The notes under the pieces are model-generated. The model was given only the letters and a program-made list of their open reading frames with translations, was not told the origin of the DNA and did no database searches. Made by a program: the position numbers and the translations under genes. From positions 1 through 64,000 of IMG/VR virus record IMGVR_UViG_2905984197_000003: 64,000 nt of DNA. The stretch is one strand, 5' to 3'. This DNA is from a virus. Lineage: Duplodnaviria > Caudoviricetes. Every line of letters starts with the position of its first letter. Within the stretch, counting starts at the first letter, position 1. Positions 13,380 through 48,272 of the stretch are shown here, piece after piece.

Positions 13380-13909
13380 TATTATTGAAAATTAGTTTTG
13401 ATACAATTGATCATTTGAGGGAAAGTCTATTCTTGATGGACTTATTATAGATAAATAGAATTCTATATTTTTTGAGCAATTATTGATTTCCGCCCTCTTT
13501 TATCGTACTATCAATTAGTGAATTGTTAATAGGGTTGACACCTCAGAAAACATATATTTTCGCAATGTTTTTTTTGTAATTTTATTTTAAATCAACTATA
13601 TTCTCTTACGTTTTTTTCTATAGTGTTTTCTTGGTATACTTTTTTTGACTCCAATGATTATTCACATTCTTTAGAGTTCAAATTTCCTGTTTTCAGGGCT
13701 TTTATAAAAGTTTTTTGACCTTGCTATGCTGTAGTTGCAGTAATAAGTATTTTCTGAGAAATAATTATTTCATTCAAAAAGGAGTAATTTATTCCATAGT
13801 ATAGCATACAAAACCCATAATCAGAAAATTGCTGTCTTCAAACTATGGGCCTTGTGATAAATTACAGAAAGTTGTTCTTAATTTATTATAGAGAGTTTTT
13901 GCTTCTTAA
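13380..13909 (-). repeat. Conserved non-coding cassette leader, copy 2
   Basis: Homologous to 6691..7405. Carries one 36-bp motif (13707..13742) and a terminator-like hairpin (13810..13853). Confidence 0.9.
13707..13742 (-). promoter_or_regulatory. 36-bp conserved leader motif, copy C
   Basis: + strand AAAGTTTTTTGACCTTGCTATGCTGTAGTTGCAGTA. Confidence 0.6.
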
Positions 13910-20559: not shown

Positions 20560-20574
20560 AGTTTTTTTATTTTT

Positions 20575-29277: not shown

Positions 29278-29765
29278 CTTTTAAAGGTTGATTTGTGAAC
29301 TTTTACATTTCCAGTGCTTTTCACTTGATTACTATCATATTGAAAAACAGTTACCGAAGCTTTTTCCATGCATTCGATTTCTACCTCAGCATTATCCAGA
29401 ATATTGATTATTAGAATTGCGTTTCCGGAAGCTTTTATTTTCGCCTTAGTATCATGTCTTAAAATCAGTTTTGATACTGAATAACTATTGTAACTTAATT
29501 CAATCTTACTTTCTCCGAAGTAAGCTGCTTCAAACTCACTTTTATTACTACCTATATAATCCGTATGAAGTCCATAGATATCAGATTTGCCTTTGAAAGC
29601 TCTTAAAGTTTCAATATCCGGGAAGTCGTTTTTCATACTCCAATCGTCACCTTCGAAATACATTTGGCAAAGATTTTCAAGTGAAGAATCGTTTTTCATT
29701 TTCTCCTGGTAATCTTTACACAGATTTTGCTTCTTTGCCAAGTTTAAAATATTGTTCGTTTTCAT
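29274..29765 (-). CDS. Hypothetical phage protein following the tape measure gene
   Basis: 163 aa, start and stop overlap both neighbours. Confidence 0.7.
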   Translation of the reverse strand: MKTNNILNLAKKQNLCKDYQEKMKNDSSLENLCQMYFEGDDWSMKNDFPDIETLRAFKGKSDIYGLHTDYIGSNKSEFEAAYFGESKIELSYNSYSVSKLILRHDTKAKIKASGNAILIINILDNAEVEIECMEKASVTVFQYDSNQVKSTGNVKVHKSTFKR

Positions 29766-32700
29766 TATGGTATACCGGCAGCGCCTTTTTTAACTTTTTG
29801 ATTTAATTCAGAAATTTCTTTTAAAATCGCCTTCAGTGGTCTAGTATTAATTTCGATTTGACTTTGAATCAATAATTGATTTTTAAATACATTTTGATTA
29901 GCCTGGTGAATTTTAAGAATTGCAACGATGTTTATTCGAACAGCATTAAACTGAGCTTCCAATGCTCCGGCAGTCTTTTCGGTAATTCCTTTGATATCGC
30001 CTTTCATGCCTTGAGCGTTTTCTGCAGCAGAACCGAATAAGTCCTCATATTGTTGGAGGGCTGCGGTATACTGTTGCATTGCCGTCAAGCCTAAAGCTTT
30101 TATCTTTTCACGCTCTTCTTCCGTAAGTCCATCAAAGGAACCTGAAACTGAGTTTGCTGCAATTTGTTGCTGAAGAATTTTAATTTTTTCCAGCAAATAA
30201 TTTTTAGTAGAATTCAAATTAGCAGCAACAGAACTATTTACTGTAGGTATTTTTTTTTCAATCTCTGCAATTTGATCTTGATAATTTTTAAGTGCCGCAG
30301 CTTGTTCGGCTGTGGCTCCAGCTTCCCCACCAAATCCCATTGATTGATATAATTTATCAACCATACTTTTTACAGCTGGCTCTAAAATTTTAATTTTTAA
30401 AGCATTCGCAACAGCGTTTCTCATAACGTCATCAACAACCTTATCAAATGCAGTTGCAGCATCTTCTCCTTTTCCAAAAGCATCAATTAATGCATCAGCT
30501 ATTTTTTGTGACCAATCTTTAAAATCTGTAGTTGTTATTGATTTTTGAAAATTGTCAATTACATCTTGGATTTGTACATTAATATCTTTAATCTGCTCTG
30601 TATATGCTGCAACTTTATCTTGGTCTACCTTTTTCTTATCAGATTCTTTAGACCTCATATCATAAAGGATTCTTTGTTGCTCCTTGAGATTAGCAATAAG
30701 ATCTCTTTGCATGGCTATTTGAGATTCGCCAGCTGTCTTCTCTATTGCTCTTTGAAGTTCTTCGTAAGCAAATTTTAGATCGTCAACAGCTCTTTTCCAT
30801 TCACGAATACCTTTTTCTTTCTTTCCATCACCAGCAGTTGAAAGCATTTTTACTATACCTACAACCATTTGCGCTATTCCGCCAACCATTTGCTGGATAT
30901 TTCCTGAGAAATATCCAACTAAAGCATTTACTAAACCTTCTAATGTTTGAGTAAGATCTTTTGCAAATTTTTCAAAAGGGCCACCCTTACCATCCATTCC
31001 AAGTGCTTCGGACAATTCTTTTGCAGAGTTTACAGCTAAATCTGTGTAAAATTTAGTTTCTTGGATGTGTTGATTTAAACGGTTAAAATCTTCTTGTGTA
31101 GCAGTTCCTTCGCGAATTCTTTTTCTTAATTCTTTAAAGCTTGCTATAAGTGATTTAAAGGGACTGTTTCCGGTTGTAAGTTTTTTTAAGTCTTCAATCT
31201 TTTTTCTGAAAACTTCAACTTCTGCAGTGGGAGCTCCCAAATTAATCAGATTCTCCATTTCTTTTTCAAGTTGTGGAATCAGTTGGGAAATCTCTTTTTT
31301 AGTTAAAGCGTCAATGTTTCCAAAAGCTTTCTCAAAAAGATCTGTCTTTTCAAAAACCGACATAAAAGCACTTCGGTACTCTTTTGCTTCATCTTTTCCT
31401 GCAGCATTTAATAATTTTAATCGCTCAGAATCAGAAACACTCATTAATCCTATTCTTCGACGGAAGTCATTATATTTTTCAGAAATTTGTATTTGTTTTT
31501 GCTCAAAAGTTTCTTGTTCCTTTATGAAGTTAGAGTAAATCTCTTTTTGCTGCTGGGAAATTTCCTTTTTTCTTTCTTGAAGGTATTTTCTTTGCTGAAG
31601 AAAGAAATCGGTATTACCGCCTGATTTTTGATAAGCCTCACTCTGTGTATTTTCAATCACATCCAATTGGTCCACAAATGATGGCAACGCTTTCAAAGCA
31701 TCATCAATTCCCCTTTTAAAGTTTTCAAAAGGTGTTTCTGTGCCATTTAGTTCAGTAATTTTTTGCTGAAGGAAAACAATATCTTTTTTATCCTTTTCTG
31801 TTAATAGTCCGGTAGTTTGCTTTGCTCTTAAGACCTGTTCTTGTTTTTCTAAGTATTCAAGATAGTTTTGAGCACCGTTAAACAATTCTTTATATTGAGC
31901 ATCAGCGGTTTCCTTACCATAAAATTCAGACATCTTATAGTAATTATTCCATTGGCGTTCTGACTCATCAATTCGCTCTTGGAAAGATTTGTATTGAAGG
32001 GATGTAATCTTGTTTTCAATAACCTCTCTACGTTTGTAAGCTTCTTCAAGACTTACACTTTCGCCTGTTAAATATGCATTACCTTTTTTATCCTTGTCTT
32101 TTCCAAATTTATCGAGTTTACGAAGTTTAACTTGACCATTAATCGCAACATCTATAGCATCAGAAATCAAAGAAGCTCTTTGTTGAAGTTCTTTAATTGA
32201 TCCTTTAGGAATAATTTCAGCAAGCTGATTTTCTTGCTTTTCTTTTTTCGGATTTAATAAATCATCAAGTTTTTTCTTTTGTGCTTCAAGTTTCCTGTAA
32301 GCTGCCTCAGTTGGCGCAGAATCCATTTGCGCTGAGATCTCATCGATCTGAGCTTTTATTTTCTGAGCCCAACCTTTTTTTGCAGGTGTTTTGTCTTCTG
32401 TAATTTCGGTTTCGGTAATATTTACACCTCTTTTTGCAAGATCATCTAACTTTTTCTGAATCTCTTCTTTCTCCGCCTCCTTATCCTTGACAATTCTATC
32501 TACACGCTCCTTTTTTCTTTCTTTTAGACTCCAGTTAAAACTACTATCGAAATCTGTGAAATCATCCCACATATCGCCAAGACCAAAATCTCCTCGAGTG
32601 TTTTTTAAATCTTCGGTATCTGTTTCTAACCTTCCTAATTCATTAACATATCTCTTTGCCTCGGCTTCAAGCTTCAACATTTCAATATATTTCTGAATCA

Positions 32701-34531
32701 TTCCTGTAGCTTTCCCAGTTTTTACAGCCTCTGCATCTAATTGATCAAGTCTTCCATTAGTTAGTAATGCAATTCTTTTATAGGCGGCAGCTTTCGTATC
32801 TTCTGATGAGGTTTGATCTTCAACAACTTTAATTAAAGCCTTTATTTTTGCTTCTTGTTCAGTAATTGTTGAAATCTGATTCTTAGCATCGTCATTCATT
32901 CTTTTCTGCGATTCTTCAGCAACCGTTAAGGCAGTATTATATTTATAAATAGCATATCCCAATGCTATAATCAAGGCCGTTGCTAAAGCATACGGATTAG
33001 AAAACAATGTTGCATTTAAGAATGATGCAGCTTTTGCCGCTGCCGTCATGGCAAGAGTTTGTGCTGTTTGAGCGAATGTTAATCTTTGAGTTGATAAAGT
33101 ATTAAGCGTTTTTGCTGCTGTTTGCTCAATCTCAGTAGCCGTCTCTACCGTATTAGTTACCGCTGATAAACTTGTAGCTGTATTTTTAAGTTGAGTTTGT
33201 GTTGTTTGGAATTCAGTCGCTGTAGTTAAAGCTCCCTTTCTAGCTATTGAAGCATTCTCTTGCGCTGCTTGCACAGTGTTTTGAGCTTTTTCAACATTTT
33301 TCGTAGCAATTAAAACCTCTCTAGCTGAACCATTTGCTTGAACAGATCTTAATTCTGCTTTAGCTAAAGCAAGTTGAACCTGAGCATTTCCTAAAGCTTG
33401 TGCTTTTTCGATAGCTAAAGCAATTGCTTTTTGCTTTTTCACAGCTAATGAAGAAACCTCAGCTTGAAGCGTTGCGTATTTAGTCGTTAAAGCAGCTCTT
33501 TCAGCTTGGGCTTCAGCAAGAGTTGCAGCAGTTTGTCTTTGCGTAACTATTGCACGGCCGAGTTTCATCCTTTGCGAAAAAGATAAATACCCTATTTCCG
33601 TTGCTAATGTTTTATTCGCTACTGATTGAGCAGCTGAAGTGACCATTATAGCTGCTTTATATGCTCCATACGACAATACAAGAGTTTTTATTATTTCGAA
33701 TAACTCTTGATAATGCTCAACTAAATGTGTTAATCCATCAATACCGTCGTAAAGAATACCTTCATTAGCTTGACCAATTTTGTTTAGCATTTGATCCCAT
33801 TGATCGCCAAGATTCGAAACTCTTCCAGACATTGAGGTAGACTGTTTTTCCATTAATTCGAAAAACATTCCTCCCTCGCTTGTCAGATTTTTGATTACCT
33901 GCTCAACATCTTTAAAACCTACCTTGCCAGCCTCAATCATACCTTTGATAGCTGTCTCATCAGTTTTTAGAACCTTGGCTAATTCAGCATACATTGGAAT
34001 ACCAGCTTCGGTGAACTGACGCATTTCCGTACCCATTAATCTTCCGGCAGCTTTTACCTGACCATATGCAAGAATAATTCTATCAATAGGAACTGAAACC
34101 CCTGCGGAAATGTTTCCGATCCTAGTTAAAGTATCTAAAAGGTCTTTCGCAGGAACCTGGAATGCAAGAAGTTGTTTCGCACCTACAGATACATCTTTTA
34201 AAGAAAACGGAGTTTTAGCAGCCAGATCAACCATTTGCCCCATCAATACCTTAGCCTTATCAGCACTTCCAAGCATTGTAGAAAATGCAATTTCCGTTTT
34301 CTGGAATTCACCTCTTACATTGATAAGCTCTTTTGTAAATGAGAATAGTGTTTGAGCGGAAAAGTAACCACCGATAGCGGTTCCTAGATTACGGAAAGCC
34401 GAATCCATTTCCTGAGCTTCTTTTTTTGCAACTCCTGAAGCTTCACGAATGCTATTTTTGATACGAGTTATACCGGCGTCAAAATTATTAACGGATAAAA
34501 GTGCATCGAAATGTAAAGCTCCCTGATTCAT
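29765..34531 (-). CDS. Tail tape measure protein
   Basis: 1588 aa, helical and Ala/Lys/Glu-rich. N-terminal tape-measure domain (AAKTPF...YGQVKAAGRLMGTEMRQFTEAGIP...LTSEGGMF). Confidence 0.95.
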   Translation of the reverse strand: MNQGALHFDALLSVNNFDAGITRIKNSIREASGVAKKEAQEMDSAFRNLGTAIGGYFSAQTLFSFTKELINVRGEFQKTEIAFSTMLGSADKAKVLMGQMVDLAAKTPFSLKDVSVGAKQLLAFQVPAKDLLDTLTRIGNISAGVSVPIDRIILAYGQVKAAGRLMGTEMRQFTEAGIPMYAELAKVLKTDETAIKGMIEAGKVGFKDVEQVIKNLTSEGGMFFELMEKQSTSMSGRVSNLGDQWDQMLNKIGQANEGILYDGIDGLTHLVEHYQELFEIIKTLVLSYGAYKAAIMVTSAAQSVANKTLATEIGYLSFSQRMKLGRAIVTQRQTAATLAEAQAERAALTTKYATLQAEVSSLAVKKQKAIALAIEKAQALGNAQVQLALAKAELRSVQANGSAREVLIATKNVEKAQNTVQAAQENASIARKGALTTATEFQTTQTQLKNTATSLSAVTNTVETATEIEQTAAKTLNTLSTQRLTFAQTAQTLAMTAAAKAASFLNATLFSNPYALATALIIALGYAIYKYNTALTVAEESQKRMNDDAKNQISTITEQEAKIKALIKVVEDQTSSEDTKAAAYKRIALLTNGRLDQLDAEAVKTGKATGMIQKYIEMLKLEAEAKRYVNELGRLETDTEDLKNTRGDFGLGDMWDDFTDFDSSFNWSLKERKKERVDRIVKDKEAEKEEIQKKLDDLAKRGVNITETEITEDKTPAKKGWAQKIKAQIDEISAQMDSAPTEAAYRKLEAQKKKLDDLLNPKKEKQENQLAEIIPKGSIKELQQRASLISDAIDVAINGQVKLRKLDKFGKDKDKKGNAYLTGESVSLEEAYKRREVIENKITSLQYKSFQERIDESERQWNNYYKMSEFYGKETADAQYKELFNGAQNYLEYLEKQEQVLRAKQTTGLLTEKDKKDIVFLQQKITELNGTETPFENFKRGIDDALKALPSFVDQLDVIENTQSEAYQKSGGNTDFFLQQRKYLQERKKEISQQQKEIYSNFIKEQETFEQKQIQISEKYNDFRRRIGLMSVSDSERLKLLNAAGKDEAKEYRSAFMSVFEKTDLFEKAFGNIDALTKKEISQLIPQLEKEMENLINLGAPTAEVEVFRKKIEDLKKLTTGNSPFKSLIASFKELRKRIREGTATQEDFNRLNQHIQETKFYTDLAVNSAKELSEALGMDGKGGPFEKFAKDLTQTLEGLVNALVGYFSGNIQQMVGGIAQMVVGIVKMLSTAGDGKKEKGIREWKRAVDDLKFAYEELQRAIEKTAGESQIAMQRDLIANLKEQQRILYDMRSKESDKKKVDQDKVAAYTEQIKDINVQIQDVIDNFQKSITTTDFKDWSQKIADALIDAFGKGEDAATAFDKVVDDVMRNAVANALKIKILEPAVKSMVDKLYQSMGFGGEAGATAEQAAALKNYQDQIAEIEKKIPTVNSSVAANLNSTKNYLLEKIKILQQQIAANSVSGSFDGLTEEEREKIKALGLTAMQQYTAALQQYEDLFGSAAENAQGMKGDIKGITEKTAGALEAQFNAVRINIVAILKIHQANQNVFKNQLLIQSQIEINTRPLKAILKEISELNQKVKKGAAGIP

Positions 34532-37359: not shown

Positions 37360-38466
37360 TTAGAAATCTCCGGTTGTACTCAGTAAGTAGATATACTTGA
37401 TAGTGTCAACGACAGGGAATGCATTTAATTCTGCTTTTGTCCACTCACCCCAAGGCTCATTTGCTGACCATTTAGAAATAAGTGTTCTACCTTTTTTATT
37501 GTAGGTAACATGCTCAACAGGTTTCATTTCTTCCATCGCTAAAGCATTTTTGATTTCTCCCAAATTACCTTCAGGAATAAATGCGATATTCGCAGCTTTG
37601 AAAGGTTGTAGAATTGAGACGTTTCCATCTTTTTCAATTGGAACACGGATGTCAACAATTTCGAAAACAGGAAGCTTTGCAGCTGTCATATACTCGTTGA
37701 TTCTATCAGAGGTCAATGGAGCTGTTTGAGAATTTCTTGCTGCTGCCGAAAGTCCGAAAAATGTTCCTACTGTTTCTTTTACTTCTTTAGACTGCATGAA
37801 CTGAAGAAAAGCGGTATTATCAATCAACATTTTAGCAAATGTTTTACCTTTACTATAAGCACCATTTACCAAATTGGTGATATCTGTAATTGGTTTTGAA
37901 TTTACGGTATCGCTCCAATCAACAGATGCGTTGATTTTATTCTCAGTAGGCATTTCCAATTCAATAGTACCAACCACAATACCGTCGGGGTTATTGTCAG
38001 CGGTAATAGTAATCGTTCCTGTTGAAATAGCTTCGGCAACGGTGTAATCAAGTCTTTTATCAACCGCTTCGGTAACATACTTTAAGTCGTCCCAAATCAA
38101 TTTTAAAGCTTGATTCTTCTTTTCGTTGTCTTTGATGGCCTTCATATCCTGAAGAACCATATAGTTTCTATATTTCTCTTCATCCAAGTCTCTCATCACC
38201 TTAATTGGCGGGATTTTACCTGTCAAAGACTGTAAAGTCTCACGACTTCTCAATGGAGTTTCACCATCACGAGTCACGAAAGATGCAGCAGGAGTAATTG
38301 TTGAATTACCCAATACTGTTGTGTAGGTTAATGATATTTGCGGTAAGGCAAATGAGAAATATTTTGAATACCAAGGCTGATTGAATTTTTCAAGCCTTGT
38401 ATCGATCATGATTTGCGTTGTCTCTTGGTCAGCGACACTTCCAAAAACTGATGCTTCTTTAGCCAT
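37360..38466 (-). CDS. Major capsid protein (lambda gpE-like)
   Basis: 368 aa. GKIPPIK, AISTGTI and WSDTVNSKPITDI motifs; follows the decoration and scaffold genes. Confidence 0.85.
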   Translation of the reverse strand: MAKEASVFGSVADQETTQIMIDTRLEKFNQPWYSKYFSFALPQISLTYTTVLGNSTITPAASFVTRDGETPLRSRETLQSLTGKIPPIKVMRDLDEEKYRNYMVLQDMKAIKDNEKKNQALKLIWDDLKYVTEAVDKRLDYTVAEAISTGTITITADNNPDGIVVGTIELEMPTENKINASVDWSDTVNSKPITDITNLVNGAYSKGKTFAKMLIDNTAFLQFMQSKEVKETVGTFFGLSAAARNSQTAPLTSDRINEYMTAAKLPVFEIVDIRVPIEKDGNVSILQPFKAANIAFIPEGNLGEIKNALAMEEMKPVEHVTYNKKGRTLISKWSANEPWGEWTKAELNAFPVVDTIKYIYLLSTTGDF

Positions 38467-38887: not shown

Positions 38888-39496
38888 TTAGAATGACTTA
38901 TTGAAAGCTTCAATGTCTGCCTTCTTTTGAGCTTCAGTCTGATTCCCAACCGAACTTGCGGGCTTATATCCGTCTCCGGCATCAGCTTCCGTTCTGTTTT
39001 GTAAAATTTCGGAGTAGAACTCCCCTTGTTTAGTAACAAACTCTTCAATTCCTTCGTCATTTTCGAAGCTTCTTCCGAGCATAACAGAATCGATTTCCTT
39101 ATCTGTCATTTTCAAAGCTTTAAGTCCTGCAACTACTTTTTGATTGTTTGTTTCGACTGCTTTTTCAGTTTTCAAACCCTGTACAGTCTCTGTAAGTTTT
39201 TGAATTGCCAAAAGCATAGGATCAGTTGTTTTACCTTCCTCTGGTTTAGGTTCATCTGCTGCCCCTTCACCAGAATTTCCACCTTGTTCTTTCTTCTTAG
39301 TTGCCGCTGTCACTCTCGCATCAATCTCTGATTGAAAAGTTTTAGCAAGCGGTTCGAAAACCACACATTGAGCAGTTATTTCTTCATCGGTTGCGTTTTC
39401 TCCAAGAGAACCCGTAATAGAATCAGATAATCCCTGTAATGCCTTTTCGGAAAGCCCATTTTTTAGGAAATGTTTTTTTACGATTGGGTTAATCAT
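38888..39496 (-). CDS. Capsid scaffolding protein
   Basis: 202 aa, charged and helical; FQSEIDARVT motif; position upstream of decoration and capsid genes. Confidence 0.65.
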   Translation of the reverse strand: MINPIVKKHFLKNGLSEKALQGLSDSITGSLGENATDEEITAQCVVFEPLAKTFQSEIDARVTAATKKKEQGGNSGEGAADEPKPEEGKTTDPMLLAIQKLTETVQGLKTEKAVETNNQKVVAGLKALKMTDKEIDSVMLGRSFENDEGIEEFVTKQGEFYSEILQNRTEADAGDGYKPASSVGNQTEAQKKADIEAFNKSF

Positions 39497-39517: not shown

Positions 39518-39568
39518 CAAAAATAATACATTCAATTGTACTATGTACGTTGGAAATTTGTATATTTG
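39518..39568. promoter_or_regulatory. Back-to-back Bacteroidota-type promoters around an ATGTACGTTGGAA box
   Basis: Minus-strand TATTTTTG at 39518..39525 and plus-strand TATATTTG at 39561..39568 both match TAnnTTTG. Confidence 0.6.
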
Positions 39569-39667: not shown

Positions 39668-39976
39668 ATGGATAAAACTCACGCAAAACAACTTTCCTTA
39701 AGATTGGATAATTACCACCTAAAACAAATGCTTGATAAAGCTAAAGAAGAAATAAAAGATTGGACTGTTGCTTCCAAAATTAACAAAGGACTTTCAAAAG
39801 GAACTGTTTGGAATATCCTCGCAAATAATTTTGAGGTGGATAAACACCTGAATAACATTGTTAAGTACAATTTGATTAGAGAGTATGGGGAATTTCTTCC
39901 GGAAAGTTTACAACCAAGAAAAAAGCAGTCCAAACCTGAAATTATACCGGTTCATCAGGATCCTATTTTTAAATAG
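39668..39976 (+). CDS. Hypothetical protein (small-gene island)
   Basis: 102 aa, ATG start, first gene after the plus-strand promoter. Confidence 0.7.
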   Translation: MDKTHAKQLSLRLDNYHLKQMLDKAKEEIKDWTVASKINKGLSKGTVWNILANNFEVDKHLNNIVKYNLIREYGEFLPESLQPRKKQSKPEIIPVHQDPIFK

Positions 39977-40001
39977 ATTACTAACAAACAAAAATTAAAT
40001 T

Positions 40002-40265
40002 ATGAAAACTGTAAAAGTAAAAATGACCAGAAAAGTTACTTACGAAGCCGTCTTAAAAGTAAGTGATGAAGATTTTGAATTAATAAAAGATATTGATAAT
40101 GAAGATGTCGAAATGTATGACCGATCAACAATTAAAGATGTTGGCAACGGAATAAAAACCATTTCTACTAATAAAGTCTATGAGATATTGGATGATTTAG
40201 ATGATCCTACTTTTGAAATAGATAAAGAAGAAACAATGTTCGATGTTTTTGTAACTCCTGCTTAA
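40002..40265 (+). CDS. Hypothetical acidic protein
   Basis: 87 aa, A-rich leader, tight packing. Confidence 0.7.
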   Translation: MKTVKVKMTRKVTYEAVLKVSDEDFELIKDIDNEDVEMYDRSTIKDVGNGIKTISTNKVYEILDDLDDPTFEIDKEETMFDVFVTPA

Positions 40266-40284
40266 CCCTTAAATAAAAACAAAG

Positions 40285-40551
40285 ATGAATACAATCTACA
40301 AATACGAATTGCAAACTATCGAACAACAAACTATATCAATGCCTGTTGGTAGTGAAATATTAAAACTTGATTTACAATTTGGCATCCCTTGTATTTGGGT
40401 TAAAGTTGATACTAATAGCGAATTAGGAGATAGAAATTTCTTCACAGTCGGAACAGGTAATTATCTGCATGATGGTGATTTAGATTTTATTGGAACATAT
40501 CAGTTGTTAGATGGGAATTTTGTCTATCACGTTTTTGAAATCAATTTTTAA
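40285..40551 (+). CDS. Small phage protein of unknown function
   Basis: 88 aa; IYKY...MP.GSEIL...CIWVKVD...GTG...FIGT...VYHVFE pattern, recalled as common in phages. Confidence 0.75.
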   Translation: MNTIYKYELQTIEQQTISMPVGSEILKLDLQFGIPCIWVKVDTNSELGDRNFFTVGTGNYLHDGDLDFIGTYQLLDGNFVYHVFEINF

Positions 40552-40571
40552 CTACCAAATAAAATACTATT

Positions 40572-41012
40572 ATGAAACAGATAGAATTAGAATTACAGAA
40601 AAGACTTCTTGTTGTTGAGTATGTAGACAAAAAAGAAGCTGAATTGGATTTATTAACTCATAAAGCTTTTCCCGAATCTTATAAAACAGTCATTTGTTTA
40701 GGTTCTGAATTAACGGAAGAGATAGCGAAAGGATTGGTTCATCAATCTATTCACACGGGTTTATTTGCTCACTATGTTAAAGATATTCCTGTAAATACAT
40801 ACTGCTATAAATCAGCTTTAGAATCTTTCTCAACAGGGATAAAAAACGAAGGTTATAACATTGGAGGAAATCCCGTTTCATTGGAAAGAGAAAAACATTA
40901 TAGGGATTTCGGAAATACTTTTGTTGCTGATGGAATCCTTAGGTCTTGGCAAGAAGCTGATCGCCGAACCTTCAACCCAGAGAAAACATTAATATTTGAA
41001 ATACTATTATGA
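40572..41012 (+). CDS. Hypothetical protein
   Basis: 146 aa, ATGA overlap with the next gene. Confidence 0.7.
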   Translation: MKQIELELQKRLLVVEYVDKKEAELDLLTHKAFPESYKTVICLGSELTEEIAKGLVHQSIHTGLFAHYVKDIPVNTYCYKSALESFSTGIKNEGYNIGGNPVSLEREKHYRDFGNTFVADGILRSWQEADRRTFNPEKTLIFEILL

Positions 41013-41374
41013 GCAGATTAGAAGAGATAAAAGACAAGTATGCTAAAACCAAACAATTCGACAATTGGACAGATTTCATAAATGATGAATCGCATTGGAT
41101 GGTTGAAAAACACATGGATAAAGTTTGCGAAATCTACGCAAAAGAATGTTCTCAGGCTTCTTTGGAGAAAGCGAAAAAAGACCTTTATAATTATTGGATA
41201 TTTTTTGAAGAAGGCAAAACCAATTCACCTGAATTCACAATTAAAGTAGAAGATCCTGCAAAAGTTTATAACACCGCTTATGAAGCTTATGGTCCACAAG
41301 TAGAAGATTTATTTTACAGCTGTGTATCTCATGAAGAATCAATCACCAACCCTGAAAACATTGTACTCCTTTAA
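41009..41374 (+). CDS. Hypothetical protein
   Basis: 121 aa, translationally coupled to the previous gene. Confidence 0.7.
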   Translation: MSRLEEIKDKYAKTKQFDNWTDFINDESHWMVEKHMDKVCEIYAKECSQASLEKAKKDLYNYWIFFEEGKTNSPEFTIKVEDPAKVYNTAYEAYGPQVEDLFYSCVSHEESITNPENIVLL

Positions 41375-41405
41375 TTTTTGACGAATTGGAACTAAAATAA
41401 ACGAT

Positions 41406-41833
41406 ATGGAAAATACAATTGAAAATGGCTTGAAAAAGAACTGCAGCCAAGAAGTATATCTCTTTGGGGATCTGTAGCTCAAACCGATTTTGTTCCTGAG
41501 TTATGTTCAGAGTTTGAAGGTGATGGTCAACAATTAATTTATTTTGGAACCGTAAACCAACGTCCTCGCTATTGGCTGATGAGAATTGATTCTAAGCATG
41601 ATATTGAAAGTGAAGAGTTCAGTGATAAAATTGAAGAAATAGTTATTGAACCATTGTGTGAGGAATTTGGAGAGACAAAATGGCTAAGTGAGGAAAACTT
41701 TACAATGGAAAAAAATAGAAAAGGATTCAGTGATTATGATGTAGAAGAATTTGACAATTACAATGAATGGATGGAAGAATATTCAGTGCTGAAAATGGTG
41801 ATTGTTTGGGTGAAAATTATCTTGGAAGTTTAA
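41406..41833 (+). pseudogene. Frameshifted hypothetical gene
   Basis: ATG at 41406 (MENTIE) joins the open frame KWLEKELQPR...MRIDSK if one A is added in GAAAATGG (about 41421..41428). Confidence 0.55.
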
Positions 41834-42024
41834 CAAATGCAAAACTTACTAAAGTGATTCTTACAATCGCTCATCTTGACCATGATAAAGAGAATTGGGA
41901 AGTGAAAGATGAAAGATTGAAGGCACTTTGCCAAAGATGTCATTTGGTTTTAGATAAAGACCATCACGCAGAAAATAGAAGAAACACAATTAGCAAAAAG
42001 AAAGGATTAGAACCACTTTTTTAA
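41767..42024 (+). CDS. HNH-like protein, probably a C-terminal fragment
   Basis: LTIAHLDHD...LKALCQRCHL HNH-type motif without the N-terminal CxxC. Confidence 0.55.
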   Translation: MDGRIFSAENGDCLGENYLGSLTNAKLTKVILTIAHLDHDKENWEVKDERLKALCQRCHLVLDKDHHAENRRNTISKKKGLEPLF

Positions 42025-42067
42025 GCTGACATCTTACTGTCTAAAAAACAATTTAAAAATAATTACA

Positions 42068-42364
42068 ATGGCAAGCAAAAATAAGCAAGAGTGCAAAGAA
42101 CAGTTTCTTGAACATTTTAAAATGACTGAAGAGGATTTGTCTGTAATATGGCGATGGTTCTTAGAATATGGCATGACTAGAGGTCAGAACGAAAACAAAC
42201 CACACCAATGTAGAGCAAATCATTACTTCTTACAGGAGATATCGGAACGCTTCACTGTAAATTGGAAAGAGTGGAATAAGAAATTATCTCCAGAACTAAA
42301 AATATTAGTAATAAACTTATACCCACAATTGATGGTTAAGAATTACGATTTTGAATGGTTGTAA
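42068..42364 (+). CDS. Hypothetical protein
   Basis: 98 aa, ATG start in the island operon. Confidence 0.7.
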   Translation: MASKNKQECKEQFLEHFKMTEEDLSVIWRWFLEYGMTRGQNENKPHQCRANHYFLQEISERFTVNWKEWNKKLSPELKILVINLYPQLMVKNYDFEWL

Positions 42365-42449
42365 AAATATTTAGTTTTCATGGTTTAGTTTTATCCTCGG
42401 CTACGGAAAACCACAATGAAAAACAATAACATCAACTTAATTTTATAGC

Positions 42450-42674
42450 ATGAAAGAATTTAAAATTGAAGGACAACCGAATTTAATCCTTGAAGTTGTC
42501 AGGGCTTTAAAGTACAATTCTTCAGGGATTGGTTTACGAAAGCTTTACGACATCAAAATAGAAAGAAAATCATATTTCAATAATAAAATAATATTCACGG
42601 CTAAAGAAGGAAGAGAAATCAATACTCAACACTTTTTTTACTTAGCACTAGACATCAACTTAACAATATCATGA
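42450..42674 (+). CDS. Hypothetical protein
   Basis: 74 aa, ATGA overlap with the next gene. Confidence 0.6.
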   Translation: MKEFKIEGQPNLILEVVRALKYNSSGIGLRKLYDIKIERKSYFNNKIIFTAKEGREINTQHFFYLALDINLTIS

Positions 42675-43060
42675 AAACTCTACTACTTTTACTTACATTA
42701 ATTTTCTTCACATCTTGCACTGATGAGAGAGAATCTGAACACTTCCAACCTCAGCACCAAATAATGGTGAATTTCGAGGCTAAAAAAGGTTCGGAAGGAG
42801 GAAATAATTTGCAATTAGCAAATGATAATGAAACTAATATTGTAGAGAAGATTATCAGGAATCAAGAATTGCCCGAAAATATTAATTATCAAACTGTTTG
42901 CTCCGGTTCTAATGACAAAGGTTTGCAATTCGCTTACATTGAGATCAAAGGTGAGCTAAAAGGATTATTTCTCGCTGTTTTTGATGAAAATAGATTGATG
43001 GTTTTCAGAATAGAAAGCTTTTCCGGAAATTGTCTGCTAAAATGGGTTAGCGAAGTTTAG
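42671..43060 (+). CDS. Putative lipoprotein
   Basis: MKTLLLLLTLIFFTS-C signal peptide II followed by acidic residues. Confidence 0.75.
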   Translation: MKTLLLLLTLIFFTSCTDERESEHFQPQHQIMVNFEAKKGSEGGNNLQLANDNETNIVEKIIRNQELPENINYQTVCSGSNDKGLQFAYIEIKGELKGLFLAVFDENRLMVFRIESFSGNCLLKWVSEV

Positions 43061-43102
43061 TATATTTACTGTTAAATAAATTTTTAATTAAACGAATTAC
43101 CA

Positions 43103-43393
43103 ATGAACGCACAAACAATTTTTAACAAATTAAGACCAAATACTTTAGAAGTAATTGTTACAGACCTACAAAAACAGTTAAAATCTTTAGATGACTTTCT
43201 GTCAACAAGCGATAAGCCTGATCCCAATGACAACGCTGAGAAATTTAAAGAAATTAGAGATTTAGAGCTTTTAGCTGTCAAAGCTTTTAATTTTGTTTCT
43301 GCAGAGAAACAATTAGAGCCATATAAATTATGTGAAAAAAGCGAATCTTATTTACAATTAGACAATGTCAAAAAAAATAATCTACCACGTTAA
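43103..43393 (+). CDS. Hypothetical protein
   Basis: 96 aa. Confidence 0.6.
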   Translation: MNAQTIFNKLRPNTLEVIVTDLQKQLKSLDDFLSTSDKPDPNDNAEKFKEIRDLELLAVKAFNFVSAEKQLEPYKLCEKSESYLQLDNVKKNNLPR

Positions 43394-43583
43394 ACTCCAC
43401 GAACCAATAGAAGGTAAAGCTGATTTCTTTTTCAGCTCTATTACTGCTATTTATAATACCTTCACTGTTGAACAAATAGGTGTGGCCAGACAGACATTAT
43501 ATCAGCAAAGTCTTAATCCTGGTGATGAGTATAGAACGAAGTTTTGTGTAGTGAAAAAAGAAGAGGTTTTGAATAATAAATAA
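43365..43583 (+). CDS. Hypothetical small protein
   Basis: 72 aa; FFSSITAIY...EQIGVA motif. Confidence 0.65.
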   Translation: MSKKIIYHVKLHEPIEGKADFFFSSITAIYNTFTVEQIGVARQTLYQQSLNPGDEYRTKFCVVKKEEVLNNK

Positions 43584-43589
43584 ATTTAA

Positions 43590-44036
43590 ATGGAAAATAT
43601 AGAATCAAGAATAAAAGATATAGCCATTGGGTTATCTGTTCCATCTGAGAAAATAAAATTAGTTTACGATAACGTAAAATCAAAAGGCATAATGCACGGT
43701 GATGACCTTCGTCAATTGACAGAAATAGGAATGCCTATGGTTAAAGAACTATGTGCTTTATACGGCAAAACCACAACCGAAATTCAGTTAATGGTTCAAA
43801 ATGGTGAAATTGATTTTAAGCATTTTGGAGCCGTTTTCCTATATCTTACTAATGAGGGTGGAATGTTTTATGAGCTAAAAAAGAAGCAATCGCAAATATG
43901 GGGATATCAATACAAGGAAGCTTTGAAACAGATTATTATGAAAGCATACAATGTCGGATGGTTTGATTCTGAAAATAAAGGTCTTGATGATTATTCAGCA
44001 GAAAAATATTATAAAGAAAATTTTGAAAAAATTTAA
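43590..44036 (+). CDS. Stand-alone tape-measure N-terminal-domain paralogue
   Basis: Residues 5-101 align without gaps to TMP residues 135-231 (42/97 identical by hand count). Confidence 0.85.
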   Translation: MENIESRIKDIAIGLSVPSEKIKLVYDNVKSKGIMHGDDLRQLTEIGMPMVKELCALYGKTTTEIQLMVQNGEIDFKHFGAVFLYLTNEGGMFYELKKKQSQIWGYQYKEALKQIIMKAYNVGWFDSENKGLDDYSAEKYYKENFEKI

Positions 44037-44039
44037 TCC

Positions 44040-44429
44040 ATGGATAGTAAAGAATTAAGAATAGGGAACTTCGTAAGCACTTCAATCGACGGAACTGATA
44101 TATATATAGTTGAAGAAATAAAAATGCACGGATTATTTCTTTCAAATCAAAAATCGATAACAGATACAGGCGAAGTTCAATATCATAATATATATCCAAT
44201 ACCATTAACAGCAGATTGGCTTCTGAAATTTGAATTTATTCATTTAGGAATTGGATTTGTATCTCCGGATGATCTTCTTTTCGTGTGTGCTGGAAATAAC
44301 GGGAAGTATGAAGTATTTTTATACAAAGAAGTTGAGGAAGATGTTTATTTAATTCATTGTGAGCAAGTCCACCAACTACAAAACTTATATTTCGCGCTTA
44401 CAGGAAAAGAGTTAAATTTGAATAATTAA
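44040..44429 (+). CDS. Hypothetical phage protein
   Basis: 129 aa; ELRIGN...PIPLT.DWLLKF...VHQLQNLYFALTGKEL pattern, recalled from Bacteroidota phages. Confidence 0.75.
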   Translation: MDSKELRIGNFVSTSIDGTDIYIVEEIKMHGLFLSNQKSITDTGEVQYHNIYPIPLTADWLLKFEFIHLGIGFVSPDDLLFVCAGNNGKYEVFLYKEVEEDVYLIHCEQVHQLQNLYFALTGKELNLNN

Positions 44430-44447
44430 TAACTAAAAATATATAAA

Positions 44448-44678
44448 ATGGAAGAAAAAATTATAACGTTTACGCACGCTGGTGGAGTTAAAAAAGCTTC
44501 ATTTGCAACTTCAGATATTCAAAGCTTCAAAACATCGATAGATAAATGTTTAAAAGGTGAACTTCACGCAATTACACTTACTGATGATGATGGAGTTGAT
44601 TCTATTTACCCGTCTCTTTATCTGCAAAATTGCCATATAGAAATAAAAGATAAACTTGTAAGACATCGAAATCTATAA
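44448..44678 (+). CDS. Hypothetical protein
   Basis: 76 aa, last gene before the terminator. Confidence 0.65.
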   Translation: MEEKIITFTHAGGVKKASFATSDIQSFKTSIDKCLKGELHAITLTDDDGVDSIYPSLYLQNCHIEIKDKLVRHRNL

Positions 44679-44680
44679 AC

Positions 44681-44702
44681 AAAGCCCCAATAAAGGGGCT
44701 TT
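44681..44702. terminator. Bidirectional intrinsic terminator
   Basis: AAAGCCCC-AATAAA-GGGGCTTT between convergent genes. Confidence 0.85.
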
Positions 44703-45802: not shown

Positions 45803-46855
45803 CTACAAAAGATGGCTAACTTTTTCTTGATTATTCAATATGAAATATGGTTTTGATTTAGCGTTTTGAATCTTCTGCTTATTCTCGGTAACCCAAGAAG
45901 TAAACTGATTAGGAAGTTTAGTAATTGCATCTGCAGGTTCTAAAGGTTTTAATCCTGCGAATATTCTTTCATTATCCTTCTCCATTTCCGCCCAAGTCTT
46001 CAAGATGGTTATTACCGTACATCTGCATTGTGGATGCCAACCCCAAAATTTAAAGTCCTTTGGATATTCCCCCGCCATCGCTTCACAAAACGGGCAATGA
46101 TTAGGATTATTTGAAAGTTTTATTCTAATTCCCTTGACAAAATCAAACTGCTGCATCTTTTGAAAGTTCGCTTCGTGATAAGCAGTATTGTTTTCGGTCC
46201 TGGTTAAACGCTCAGCATTTTTGTAAGATGATCGATAAACACCTTGTCCAGGTTTATAAGCTTTTGCATTTTTAGACAGCACTAAATTACCATGTTTATC
46301 TCTTACTCTTCGAAAGAGTCGATCAGGATCCGTAAGGTTTGCTTTTAATTCTCTTGCAAGTTTGGCAGCAGACTTCCCCTCCCCGATTCCGATATCCAAA
46401 CCTAACTCAATTTCCTTTTTAAATTGCTCAGATAACTTCCAAACCTTATCGGATAACCTCAACCCGTCTATCTTACGATTTTGGAAGGCTTTTAAAGCTT
46501 CTTTATTCGGATTAAGGTATTCTTTCACCTTTTCTTTAGGAAGATTGATTTTTGAGGCTATTTCATTGACTAAAGCTGATTGTTTTTTCTCTCCATACTT
46601 CCAACTCTGTTCGAATTGGTTGAACATTTCCGCAGAAACGTTTTTCGTAAAGCCTTCGAAAAGTTTATCTACTTGTGGTTTTAGTTGTGGATAGTCTTTA
46701 AATGAAAATAGTTTTGTTGTATCTATTTGACCGAGGGAAATAAGCTTTACAATATCTTCGATGAGTTTTTGGTAGAAACTTTTTATCTTACGAACATTAT
46801 ACTCACCTCTTTCAAAGTGAGTATTATCAAAAATATCATCATGAAGATCTGCCAT
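45803..46855 (-). CDS. Head morphogenesis protein (MuF / SPP1 gp7-like)
   Basis: AERLTRTE, CPFC and WHPQCRC motifs; follows the portal gene. Confidence 0.85.
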   Translation of the reverse strand: MADLHDDIFDNTHFERGEYNVRKIKSFYQKLIEDIVKLISLGQIDTTKLFSFKDYPQLKPQVDKLFEGFTKNVSAEMFNQFEQSWKYGEKKQSALVNEIASKINLPKEKVKEYLNPNKEALKAFQNRKIDGLRLSDKVWKLSEQFKKEIELGLDIGIGEGKSAAKLARELKANLTDPDRLFRRVRDKHGNLVLSKNAKAYKPGQGVYRSSYKNAERLTRTENNTAYHEANFQKMQQFDFVKGIRIKLSNNPNHCPFCEAMAGEYPKDFKFWGWHPQCRCTVITILKTWAEMEKDNERIFAGLKPLEPADAITKLPNQFTSWVTENKQKIQNAKSKPYFILNNQEKVSHLL

Positions 46856-46859: not shown

Positions 46860-48272
46860 TTACAACTCTACAGGATTATTAAACACACTCTCAGTTTTCG
46901 CTTTCTCCTGCTCAGCTTCAAGAATTAACCAATCTTCTTTCGGTGCCAATTGCGAAAGCTCAGCAGAATACTCCTGAGAAACTAAAGGCTTGTTTCCGTT
47001 CGCTGTCATGAGTGTTTCAACCCATTCTTTCGTATCTTGAATCATGTAAGGTTTAATCACCGGTTCAAGTTCCAGATTATTTGTAGCATCCGCTAATTTT
47101 AAGTTCAGCAAATTACCAACATAAGACTTTAGGATATTGAAACGTCTCTGGAAGTAATCCTCCCAAATTTCATTCTTCTCCATTACCTTCAAATGAGCAT
47201 CCATAAACAACATTTTAAGCATAATCCCCGACACTTGAGACATTCCTTTAACTTGTCTAAACAAATCAGGTGTTTTAGTGAATTTGTGAATGTTTTCGAG
47301 CCTTGTTTCAATTTCCAAACGAACTGATTCCGGAGCAGCTTCCCAAGAAATAACCTTCATATCAGAACCTAAATCACCCATAATAGCCTTATTCGCTTCT
47401 CCAGCTTGTGGTAAAGACGTAACTGTTCCAGTTATGAATGTTACTGGCGCTGCATGATAATCATTAATCTCAGCATGACGGGAAAATAATAGCTCCAAAC
47501 GTTCGATATCGTACTTCACGTCTTCATATTCGGTTTCTTCCTGAGAAGCATAAACAACAGGGATTTTTCCAATCACATTCTTACCCGCTCCTTCAATAAC
47601 CTCATCGATCCATCCCGCATCTGCTTTTTTAAATCTTCTTACTTCGGTATCTGTATAAGTTTCGAAATATTCGATTGTGTTTCTTTCTTTGTCAATCAAA
47701 GTGAAAGCCCGAGAGAACGCAACCATGTTGTCAAACCCATCAAACATCGGATAAAGAACATCATTCTTCCAAGGAACAAATAACTTTAGTTTAATCCTGA
47801 AGTTACACGGAAAACCATAATCTTCGTGAGTATCTACTTTCTGATAATACCAATACTCAGCGATCTCGGTTGATCGATAAAGTTCCCTTGCTATCTGTCT
47901 ATTCTTGATATTTGCTTTATTCTCAAACAGAATTCTTTCAATAGCTTTTTCGACAACCTCTTCCTGACTACCTTCCTCGGCATTACTTTTAATTGTAACA
48001 GGGTTACCAAAACCAAATGAAACAGCGCTGTTTACGATGTATTTCTGAACTGGAATTGCAATTCTGTTTACGAGTTTAGTTCTTTGAACCTCGCCTTTTT
48101 CGTTTTTAATCTCTTTATCCGGAAGGAAGGTTTTATCTTGAATAGTTCGGTGCTCCGAAACCTTCCATTCTTTTTTAAGATCTTCGATTTTCGGTTTTGC
48201 CGAGCGGTCAACCTTTAGAACTTCGATTTGTTCCGCTGGTGAAGCTTTTTCTGTAATTTCTGCTATGTTCAT
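46860..48272 (-). CDS. Portal protein (SPP1 gp6-like)
   Basis: 470 aa; NRIAIP...FGNPV, IGKIPVVY, TPD and VSGIMLK motifs. Confidence 0.9.
   Translation of the reverse strand: MNIAEITEKASPAEQIEVLKVDRSAKPKIEDLKKEWKVSEHRTIQDKTFLPDKEIKNEKGEVQRTKLVNRIAIPVQKYIVNSAVSFGFGNPVTIKSNAEEGSQEEVVEKAIERILFENKANIKNRQIARELYRSTEIAEYWYYQKVDTHEDYGFPCNFRIKLKLFVPWKNDVLYPMFDGFDNMVAFSRAFTLIDKERNTIEYFETYTDTEVRRFKKADAGWIDEVIEGAGKNVIGKIPVVYASQEETEYEDVKYDIERLELLFSRHAEINDYHAAPVTFITGTVTSLPQAGEANKAIMGDLGSDMKVISWEAAPESVRLEIETRLENIHKFTKTPDLFRQVKGMSQVSGIMLKMLFMDAHLKVMEKNEIWEDYFQRRFNILKSYVGNLLNLKLADATNNLELEPVIKPYMIQDTKEWVETLMTANGNKPLVSQEYSAELSQLAPKEDWLILEAEQEKAKTESVFNNPVEL

What the first reader, a model, noticed from the sequence alone, without database searches (positions are those of the whole stretch)
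43590..44036. Free-standing mini tape-measure domain: possible decoy or tail-assembly interference factor
Seen: residues 5-101 (ESRIKDIAIGLSVP...RQLTEIGMPM...LTNEGGMFYELKKKQS) align without gaps to this phage's own TMP residues 135-231 (about 33839-34129), 42/97 identical by hand. The ORF is intact, on the opposite strand, outside the tail operon, and has an unrelated ~45-aa tail. That divergence with an intact frame argues against a recent duplication remnant. Known: some superinfection-exclusion and defence proteins target tape measure proteins. Inference: a molecular mimic that either titrates TMP-sensing defences or poisons tail assembly or DNA injection of rival phages.
Basis: partly seen in the sequence, partly recalled or inferred. 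Interest (0 to 1): 0.85.

Follow-up and report, generated by a model that had tools for sequence, protein, structure and literature searches.

The report
Free-standing tape-measure domain gene family
A Chryseobacterium prophage carries a small, separately encoded copy of the best-conserved folded module of phage tail tape-measure proteins; it belongs to an old family of such mini-genes whose function is untested but which most plausibly interferes with rival phages.

Summary
ORF 43590..44036 (+, 148 aa) matches the phage's own tape measure protein (TMP, 29765..34531, -) at 42/96 residues without gaps, E 6e-24. One point is wrong: the "unrelated tail" is a diverged, colinear continuation of the TMP, so the whole ORF is a slice of TMP residues ~131-278, ending just before the first hydrophobic segment.

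It is not a recent remnant. Synonymous sites against the own TMP are saturated. Eleven other full-length members (59-93% identity) exist in Chryseobacterium and Myroides sequences. Shorter sister families (91-110 aa) keep only the three-hairpin core. All minis fall on one side of a long branch away from 24 TMPs and share an MxNIE start. One sister family (9 of 240 Chryseobacterium genomes) shows purifying selection and also sits in non-phage chromosomal contexts.

The gene is an exchangeable cassette in a 5-kb opposite-strand accessory operon that splits the head genes of an integrated phage.

Function is untested. My best guess (0.35) is a competitive mimic of the TMP head-end module that disturbs tail assembly or DNA delivery of competing phages. 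The main rival (0.2) is a decoy for TMP-sensing receptors such as Avs18.

Earlier notes of this scan report free-standing TMP N-domain copies on other DNA.

The parts
43590..44036 (+). mini-TMP gene (mini-A family), 148 aa plus stop
   Evidence: ORF. TMP homology. Family of 11 other full-length members. AF2 model with pLDDT 86.6.
43605..43892 (+). Core module, residues 6-101: three helix-loop-helix hairpins. Equivalent to TMP residues 136-231.
   Evidence: BLASTP. Helices 4-15, 19-32, 37-45, 50-58, 62-70 and 76-87. G47 and P49 are invariant in all 39 aligned minis and TMP slices.
43893..44033 (+). Diverged continuation, residues 102-148: a long helix to ~126 and a short terminal helix. Equivalent to TMP ~232-278.
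   Evidence: hhalign reaches residue 121. tblastn reaches residue 148 in 5 of 25 TMPs. Colinear in MAFFT. Absent from the short sister families and from the 111-aa truncated allele.
29765..34531 (-). The phage's own tape measure protein gene (1588 aa)
   Evidence: Pfam TMP_3 at 94.8 bits. PHROG 9959 at 1.4e-185.
33674..34141 (-). TMP residues 131-286: the slice homologous to the mini, running into the first hydrophobic segment
   Evidence: In the AF2 model of TMP 1-300, the 10-residue blocks covering 111-230 have pLDDT 74-89 and the rest is low.
39668..44678 (+). Opposite-strand accessory operon of small genes. It lies between the head-morphogenesis gene (45803..46855, -) and the scaffold-position gene (38888..39496, -).
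   Evidence: ORFs. Portal, head-morphogenesis and major-head assignments. No Pfam, PHROG-function or PADLOC name for its genes. Content varies between related prophages.
39561..39568 (+). Bacteroidota-type -7-like motif (TAnnTTTG), 107 nt before the first island gene. A candidate promoter only.
   Evidence: Pattern scan. The consensus itself is recalled, not tested.
44681..44702 (+). Terminator-like hairpin directly after the last island gene
43365..43583 (+). 72-aa gene directly upstream (6-nt spacer). PHROG 10608, function unknown.
   Evidence: Co-conserved next to the mini in L003 and L005. Kept in G226, where the mini slot holds other genes.
44040..44429 (+). 129-aa gene directly downstream. 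PHROG 10066, a widespread phage protein of unknown function.
   Evidence: Homologues lie downstream of minis in L003 and L038.

Best explanation
The ORF is a functional member of an old family of free-standing genes. This family arose, probably once, by capture of the conserved head-proximal helical module of a siphophage tape measure protein (TIGR02675, the C-terminal half of Pfam TMP_3, plus the following helix). The product is a soluble, mildly acidic cytoplasmic protein with no signal peptide or membrane segment. It keeps the module's fold and its most conserved hairpin. It lacks everything that makes a TMP a ruler: the coiled coil, the hydrophobic segments and the C-terminal tip anchor. 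It is carried as an exchangeable accessory (moron-type) cassette in an opposite-strand operon inside the head genes of an integrated Chryseobacterium phage.

Most likely mechanism (inferred, not shown): it competes with the same module of TMPs for that module's partner. The partner could be another TMP chain, the tail terminator or head-tail connector, or a host factor used at DNA entry. The result would be disturbed tail completion or DNA delivery in related competing phages. The outcome would resemble the prophage tail-assembly blockers Tab and Tai, but would be achieved by a dominant-negative copy of the target rather than by an unrelated binder.

Shown here: homology, fold, family, age, cassette behaviour and context. 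Inferred: expression from the prophage, binding, the target and the phenotype.
For: (1) The ORF is a colinear copy of exactly the confidently folded TMP module. Foldseek against BFVD returns TMP N-terminal domains, 16 matches at E <= 0.001.

(2) The divergence is old. pS is 0.845 against the own TMP. All 21 minis lie on one side of a 1.1-substitution branch away from 24 TMPs, with support 99/73 and in 98% of 200 bootstrap trees. They share an MxNIE start that the TMPs lack.

(3) The family is conserved. There are 11 other full-length members at 59-93% identity with intact frames. In a search of 1.84 billion representatives, 8 of the top 150 were short proteins aligned from residue 1.

(4) The 99-106-aa sister family is related (hhalign to mini-A probability 93.9, E 1.6e-7). 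It occurs in 9 of 240 Chryseobacterium genomes. Its dN/dS is 0.12-0.50 for all pairs with dS >= 0.2. In at least one genome it sits among host-type genes (esterase, AraC and cNMP regulators, S41 peptidase). Clustering suggests the same for several other loci. Retention outside a phage fits a benefit to the host better than a phage-only role.

(5) It behaves as an accessory cassette. Close relatives G202 and G226, whose TMP slice is 97-98% identical, lack it. Public contigs replace it at its gene borders.

(6) Over the same ~96-100 residues, the mini is more like 15 of 25 other TMPs of the host family (48-56%) than like the own TMP type (44-45%).

(7) There is precedent. Prophage Tab targets the TMP and blocks tail assembly (PMC10884400, passages read). 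Tai systems block tail assembly (PMC11364771, abstract and sections 10 and 12). The N-terminal 154 residues of the TP901-1 TMP are essential and are proposed to contact the terminator or connector (PMC5099701, passages).
Against: No expression data, binding data or phenotype were obtained. Selection on the mini-A subfamily itself is not clearly purifying: pairwise dN/dS is 0.18-1.29 on 3-23 nonsynonymous and 1-11 synonymous differences. A 111-aa truncated allele circulates in 3 independent sources. The single clade of minis may owe something to long-branch attraction, since the stems are 3.8 and 6.5 for two subfamilies. The link of the 99-aa family to TMPs directly is weak (hhalign probability 32%). 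The 'self less similar than foreign' pattern fails in the phages with the truncated allele, whose own TMP is 53% identical. The partner of the TMP N-module is unknown, and no solved structure shows it: 0 PDB fold matches at E <= 0.001. There is no PADLOC hit. Orientation opposite to the late genes does not prove lysogenic expression.
Confidence: 0.35

Rival explanations
1. Counter-defence decoy. The mini binds a host immune receptor that senses the conserved TMP module (an Avs18-type STAND NTPase or a Tab-like blocker). It either fails to activate the receptor or soaks it up, protecting the phage's own TMP during lytic growth.
For: [quoted passage not shown] The mini is a 148-aa helical copy of the most conserved TMP module in this phage group. 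Anti-Tab and Ati counter-defence proteins that bind their blockers are encoded inside morphogenesis regions.
Against: By that report, a segment sufficient to activate the sensor should trigger it rather than block it. I could not see figures or supplements, so I cannot say that the Avs18 segment is this module. The sister minis persist under purifying selection in non-phage chromosomal contexts, where a phage-only counter-defence gives no benefit. The gene is not in the late operon, unlike anti-Tab. No such sensor was looked for in this genome.
Confidence: 0.2
2. Superinfection exclusion at DNA entry. The prophage-made mini occupies a host or envelope-associated factor that incoming TMPs need, or binds the head-end of the incoming TMP as it reaches the cytoplasm, and so stalls genome delivery.
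For: TMPs are known targets of exclusion proteins. Ltp is described in passages of PMC11480721 and listed under PMC3952083. HK97 gp15, PtsG and FkpA are cited in the reference list of PMC11364771 and in passages of PMC5099701. The same island carries a conserved lipoprotein (42671..43060), which is a typical exclusion-type gene.
Against: The mini has no signal peptide or membrane segment (sequence), so it cannot meet the TMP in the envelope. It copies the end of the TMP that leaves the tail last. No host partner is known.
Confidence: 0.1
3. A helper or component of the phage's own virion. It could be a cap or chaperone for the TMP head end, or a protein packaged and injected with the DNA, as earlier notes of this scan proposed for free-standing TMP N-domain copies in other phages.
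For: Earlier scan notes e1-5730544, e1-5986762 and e1-5730540 (unchecked) describe free-standing TMP N-domain genes with a shared leader. The gene sits within the morphogenesis region.
Against: It is absent from close relatives with 97-98% identical TMP slices. It is on the opposite strand from all structural genes. No N-terminal leader shared with the other island proteins is visible by eye in the ORF list. Sister genes occur without any phage around them.
Confidence: 0.1
4. A decaying fragment of a foreign TMP left by recombination, with no function.
For: dN/dS within mini-A is not clearly below 1 for some pairs: 1.18 and 1.29 for L003 against L036 and L037. A truncated allele exists. Phage islands are mosaic.
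Against: The frame is intact in 12 of 12 full-length members down to 59% identity, and the tail is conserved. There is a precise start at the module boundary and a shared derived N-terminus across subfamilies. The confident fold is retained. The sister family is under purifying selection.
Confidence: 0.05

Closest known systems
Tab / anti-Tab of Pseudomonas phage JBD26 (PMC10884400; abstract and passages read)
   Same: An accessory gene of a prophage, placed inside the packaging and morphogenesis region. The tape measure protein is the object of the conflict. Tab is a soluble protein. The proposed outcome here, tailless progeny of rivals, is the same.
   Different: Tab recognises the TMP C-terminus and is not described as a TMP homologue in the passages I read. 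This gene is a copy of the TMP N-terminal module. No cognate antidote has been identified here. No sequence comparison with Tab was made. Function here is untested.
Tai / Ati tail-assembly-inhibition systems (PMC11364771; abstract and sections 10 and 12 read)
   Same: Carried by mobile elements. Interference with tail assembly of other phages. The defence gene is paired with lytic-cycle counter-defence in some prophages.
   Different: Tai escape mutations map to the central tail fibre J or the tail needle, not to the TMP. Tai is not reported as a mimic: the words paralog, decoy and 'homolog of' have 0 occurrences in the text. No homology was tested.
Avs18 trigger segment of tape measure proteins (PMC13581612; abstract and passages)
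   Same: A helical, most-conserved TMP segment of about 130 residues acts as an autonomous unit recognised by another protein. The mini is such a unit as a separate gene.
   Different: That work concerns a host sensor and full TMPs of other phages, mostly coliphages according to a review passage. Whether the segment equals TIGR02675/TMP_3 could not be checked, because figures are not held and supplements are closed.
Full-length TMP_3-type tape measure proteins (PF20155, TIGR02675, PHROG 9959)
   Same: Sequence and predicted fold of the module.
   Different: 148 aa against 1200-1700 aa. No coiled-coil ruler, hydrophobic segments or tip anchor. Not located between the chaperone and distal-tail genes. 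Sits on a separate long branch.
Satellite-encoded copies of helper-phage structural proteins (SaPI CpmB scaffold mimic, Ccm capsid homologue). Recalled from memory; no call.
   Same: A diverged copy of a structural protein used to redirect or disturb another element's assembly.
   Different: Those act on capsids and are encoded by satellites. This one copies a tail-protein module and sits in a prophage and, for sister genes, in chromosomes.
Free-standing TMP N-domain genes noted earlier in this scan (e1-5730544, e1-5986762, e1-5730540; AI notes, unchecked)
   Same: A small separate gene that copies the folded head-end domain of the TMP.
   Different: Those carry a shared leader and were read as packaged, injected proteins of large uncultured phages. 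Here there is no such leader, the phage is temperate, the gene is in an opposite-strand island, and orphan relatives exist.

Membership tests
TIGR02675 tape_meas_nterm (domain model) | Score at or above NCBIfam's curated cut-off (21.35 bits) | tested here: met
   23.1 bits, E 7e-05, residues 30-79 matching profile positions 26-75 of 75. The three short sister proteins tested gave no hit.
Pfam PF20155 TMP_3 | Score at or above the gathering threshold (41 bits) and coverage of the 192-position domain | tested here: not met
   27.3 bits, covering only profile positions 99-176 of 192. The own TMP scores 94.8 bits over positions 1-191. The mini holds only the C-terminal part of the Pfam domain.
Functional tape measure protein | Very long helical protein whose length sets tail length, with hydrophobic segments and a C-terminal tip anchor, encoded between the tail assembly chaperone and distal tail genes | tested here: not met
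   148 aa, on the opposite strand, about 9 kb from the tail genes. It ends before the hydrophobic segment. The genome has a separate complete TMP.
Mini-TMP family (defined here) | Protein of 90-165 aa that starts at the module boundary with MxNIE or a similar start, holds the three-hairpin core with the invariant G-x-P hairpin, and groups with the minis rather than the TMPs | tested here: met
Tab (tail assembly blocker) | Constitutive expression from the prophage; blocks tail assembly of invading phages through their TMP; cognate anti-Tab | not testable with these tools
   No RNA holder was listed. Sequence relatedness to Tab was not tested.
Tai (tail assembly inhibition) | Homology to the 57 Tai representatives; release of tailless particles | not tested
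   No Tai sequence was compared. PADLOC-DB 2.0.0 (2023) gave no hit for the mini or 5 neighbouring or sister proteins.
Avs18-recognised TMP segment | Being the ~130-residue helical, most conserved TMP segment that activates SeAvs18 | tested here: inconclusive
   The description fits in size, helicity and conservation. The segment's coordinates and family are given in figures or supplements that I could not see.

The most novel reading that the evidence does not exclude
Flavobacterial phages and their hosts maintain a family of dominant-negative 'mini tape measures'. These are captured copies of the TMP head-end module. They act as a new class of anti-phage or inter-phage weapon by jamming tail completion or genome delivery of rivals. 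Some copies have been domesticated as single-gene defences in bacterial chromosomes.
Probability: 0.3. Interest if true: 0.8.

Novelty: new variant of a known kind. Interest (0 to 1): 0.58.

Why it matters
If the family works as proposed, it would show that phages and bacteria can make a defence simply by cutting out the conserved module of a rival's structural protein and expressing it alone. That is a cheap and evolvable route to assembly interference, distinct from the unrelated binders Tab and Tai. It would also give the first functional handle on the TMP N-terminal module, which is the most conserved part of many tape measure proteins. That module is essential in TP901-1, appears to be sensed by Avs18-type receptors, and is absent from solved tail structures. 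Even without a known function, the family marks this module as an autonomous folding and interaction unit. It also offers a small soluble protein for structural and binding work.

Tried and rejected
As that tool's message advised, I went on with the search for related loci, the genome search and the fetch from genomes. DNA of the distant mini-A members (P0004-P0013) therefore could not be obtained, and dN/dS for mini-A rests on 5 near relatives only.

Nothing replaced it.

Expression: no RNA holder listed. The four runs laid were contigs and say nothing about transcription.

Near-identical phage records: megablast of the island against 50,697 phage records found nothing.

Solved structures: a profile search gave only weak hits to three TMP chains (E 0.003-0.04). 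Foldseek against the PDB gave 0 of 10 matches at E <= 0.001.

Defence libraries: no PADLOC hit.

DNA-binding (helix-hairpin-helix) idea: rejected. All 12 minis checked are acidic to neutral (pI 5.0-6.0; mini-D 7.8). Pfam gave no such domain. The UniRef label 'DUF4332' on a sister protein was not reproduced: 0 families for P0064 at E <= 5.

Repressor and integrase: I read the + strand 162-aa ORF right of the window as repressor-like by eye, but Pfam gave nothing. No tyrosine or serine recombinase hit lies on contig C3. Integration is inferred from two things. ORFs left of the window look host-like, read by eye only. Syntenic elements lie inside large chromosomal contigs of relatives.

Sigma-70 promoter scan: 38 sites against 32.2 +/- 6.0 in shuffles, so uninformative.

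Orphan mini-D: found in only 1 of 239 other genus genomes, so vertical retention could not be tested.

ESM Atlas: scores of 0.89 or less for short TMP_3 clusters are leads only.

Literature: five full-text searches were run. They found no paper describing a free-standing TMP-domain gene. PF20155 and TIGR02675 each had 0 occurrences. Subscription journals and supplements were not searchable.

Full report
**Observation**

The window is G000:C3:53398-117397 of a 4.3-Mb, 158-contig bacterial assembly. ORF 43590..44036 (+) is intact and encodes 148 aa. BLASTP against the 1588-aa product of 29765..34531 (-) gives 42/96 identities and no gaps. It aligns residues 6-101 with residues 136-231 at E 6e-24; every other local alignment has E > 10.

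The large protein is the phage's tape measure protein (TMP). It scores 94.8 bits on Pfam TMP_3 and 1.4e-185 on PHROG 9959. The small protein hits PHROG 9959 at 3.1e-22 and TIGR02675 tape_meas_nterm at 23.1 bits, above the cut-off of 21.35. It hits Pfam TMP_3 at only 27.3 bits, below the cut-off of 41, over profile positions 99-176 of 192. The own genome holds just these two matches.

**Correction: the tail is not unrelated**

tblastn of the mini against 29 TMP loci of the same bacterial family hit 25 TMPs. In 5 of them the alignment ran to residue 148. Profile-profile comparison of 12 full-length minis with 26 TMP slices gave probability 99.9 and E 4.6e-34, and extended to mini residue 121. 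MAFFT aligns the remaining residues colinearly.

The whole ORF is therefore a slice of TMP residues ~131-278. It stops just before the first hydrophobic TMP segment.

**Fold**

AlphaFold2 on a 39-row alignment gives mean pLDDT 86.6. The model has six short helices forming three hairpins (residues 4-87), a long helix (92-126) and a short one (137-144). A model of TMP 1-300 is confident only over about residues 111-230, where 10-residue blocks have pLDDT 74-89. That is the same module.

Foldseek finds TMP N-terminal domains among viral models, with 16 matches at E <= 0.001. It finds nothing significant in the PDB: 0 of 10 matches at E <= 0.001. In the global search, the module begins at residues ~134-140 in most full-length hits.

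**Age**

Codon-aligned to its own TMP, nucleotide identity is 52.8%, third-position identity is 33% and pS is 0.845, which is saturated. This is not a recent duplication.

**Family**

A length-restricted search found 14 proteins among 18 candidates. Eleven of them, besides the window's own, are full-length relatives of 146-164 aa at 59-93% identity, with the tail conserved. Named members are Chryseobacterium and a Myroides MAG. GTDB representatives held one further copy (1 relative among 12 pattern matches). IMG/VR held two (2 of 27). JGI metagenomes held two (2 of 245).

Three of these sources (L005, L036, L037) carry the same 111-aa truncated allele, which keeps the core.

**Sister families**

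Searches with wider profiles revealed shorter families that keep only the core.
- A 99-106-aa family (mini-B) occurs in 9 of 240 genus genomes. Its hhalign match to mini-A has probability 93.9 and E 1.6e-7. Its direct match to TMP slices is weak, at probability 32%.
- A 98-aa protein lies in the syntenic island of the G339 prophage.
- A 94-aa protein in G087 lies between ORFs that I read by eye as frr and pyrH. It has a 62%-identical 91-aa relative.
- Further 110-aa and 118-aa forms exist.

In the exhaustive search of 1.84 billion representatives there were 10,168 hits at E <= 0.001. Eight of the best 150 are short proteins aligned from their first residue.

**Phylogeny**

A maximum-likelihood tree of 45 core sequences puts all 21 minis on one side of a branch of length 1.1, away from 24 TMPs. 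Support is 99/73, and the split appears in 98% of 200 bootstrap trees. The G087 form nests inside a mini-A subgroup (99/96). Long branches call for caution. The minis share an MxNIE-type start that the TMPs lack.

**Selection**

For mini-A, dN/dS between the window and L003 is 0.40 (7 synonymous, 12 nonsynonymous differences). Other pairs range from 0.18 to 1.29, on few changes. This is inconclusive.

For mini-B, 10 sequences give 45 pairs. All pairs with dS >= 0.2 have dN/dS of 0.12-0.50. The two pairs above 1 have 2 or fewer synonymous differences.

**Context**

The mini lies in a run of small + strand genes (39668..44678). This run sits between the head-morphogenesis gene (45803..46855) with the portal gene (46860..48272) on one side, and the scaffold-position gene (38888..39496) with the major head gene (37360..38466) on the other. 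All of those are on the - strand.

A terminator-like hairpin follows the last island gene, at 44681-44702. A TAnnTTTG motif lies 107 nt before the first island gene. None of the island genes has a named function. One is a lipoprotein by its N-terminus.

ORFs left of the window look host-like by eye. RecT and an SMC-like ATPase lie to the right. No recombinase hit is on the contig. Related elements lie inside large chromosomal contigs. I therefore treat the element as an integrated phage.

**Cassette behaviour**

G226 and G202 have TMP slices 97-98% identical to the window's but no mini. G226 keeps the 72-aa upstream gene and has 81-aa and 83-aa genes in the mini's slot. Public contigs either replace the gene or change its upstream neighbour at positions 43579-43590.

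The related phage L003 carries both mini-B and mini-A in the same island. Mini-B also stands alone among host-type genes in G475: an esterase, AraC and cNMP regulators and an S41 peptidase. Clustering suggests the same in several other loci.

**Self against foreign**

Over ~96-100 residues, the mini is 48-56% identical to 15 of 25 TMPs of the host family and 44-45% identical to the own TMP type. In the phages with the truncated allele, however, the own TMP is 53% identical.

**Interpretation**

The protein is soluble and mildly acidic. It retains the invariant G-x-P hairpin shared by all 39 aligned sequences. It lacks every ruler feature of a TMP.

Published work bears on the possible role.
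- Prophages target rivals' TMPs or tail tips to block assembly: Tab (PMC10884400) and Tai (PMC11364771).
- The TMP N-terminus is essential and is thought to meet the terminator or connector (PMC5099701).
- A ~130-residue helical, most-conserved TMP segment is sufficient to activate the sensor Avs18 (PMC13581612).

I therefore favour a competitive mimic that disturbs rivals' tail completion or genome delivery (0.35). The reason is that sister genes persist under selection outside phages. A decoy for TMP sensors comes second (0.2). Exclusion at DNA entry (0.1), a virion or assembly role (0.1) and a dead remnant (0.05) follow. The remaining probability is unassigned. None of these was tested functionally.

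**Novelty**

Five full-text searches found no description of such genes. Earlier AI notes of this scan report free-standing TMP N-domain copies in other phages, with a different reading. I rate this a new variant of a known kind: an accessory phage-conflict gene derived from a structural protein.

Noticed in passing
window 42671..43060 (+): A 129-aa protein with a lipoprotein-type N-terminus (hydrophobic stretch, then Cys), preceded by a 74-aa gene (42450..42674). Both are conserved in the islands of L003 and L005. It is a classic candidate for a surface exclusion protein in the same operon as the mini.
   Followed up: partly
L039 14853..15152; L063 8007..8306; L064 7970..8269; L068 7998..8297; L066 8015..8314; L003 9473..9790: The 99-106-aa 'mini-B' family is found in 9 of 240 Chryseobacterium genomes. 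It occurs at a prophage end next to the lysis genes (G387), inside the same island as mini-A (L003), and as a lone gene among host-type genes. By its cluster listing, one species carries two copies.
   Followed up: partly
L005 10001..10336 and 10353..11183; L036; L037: A truncated 111-aa allele of the mini shares the same altered C-terminus in three independent sources. In L005 it is followed by a 276-aa gene on the opposite strand.
   Followed up: partly
L040 9119..9403 (G087): A 94-aa mini stands between ORFs that I read by eye as frr and pyrH. It is next to two overlapping unknown ORFs (131 and 115 aa) and a 451-aa protein with a lipase-like GHSLAG motif (by eye). There was no NCBIfam or PADLOC hit.
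   Followed up: partly
window 53256..53326 (-): ARAGORN calls a tRNA-Tyr with the unusual anticodon ATA, upstream of the terminase genes.
   Followed up: no
window 1..21186 (-): Very large ORFs (1471, 1607 and 1876 aa) with repeated small genes between them lie at the left end of the element. They look like alternative fibre or receptor-binding cassettes. First-reader notes on this genome say the same.
   Followed up: no
window 45803..46855 (-): The head-morphogenesis (MuF-type) protein also matches PHROG 16625, annotated 'Bxa ADP-ribosyl transferase', at 2.2e-73 over residues 195-347. This probably reflects the shared MuF part of fusion proteins.
   Followed up: no
G000:C3 (whole contig): No tyrosine or serine recombinase family hit lies on the 127.8-kb contig that holds this apparently integrated phage. 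How it integrates is open.
   Followed up: partly
Search of protein representatives output: In most full-length TMP hits, the conserved module starts at residues 134-140. This is a strikingly fixed distance from the N-terminus across proteins of 800-1900 aa.
   Followed up: no
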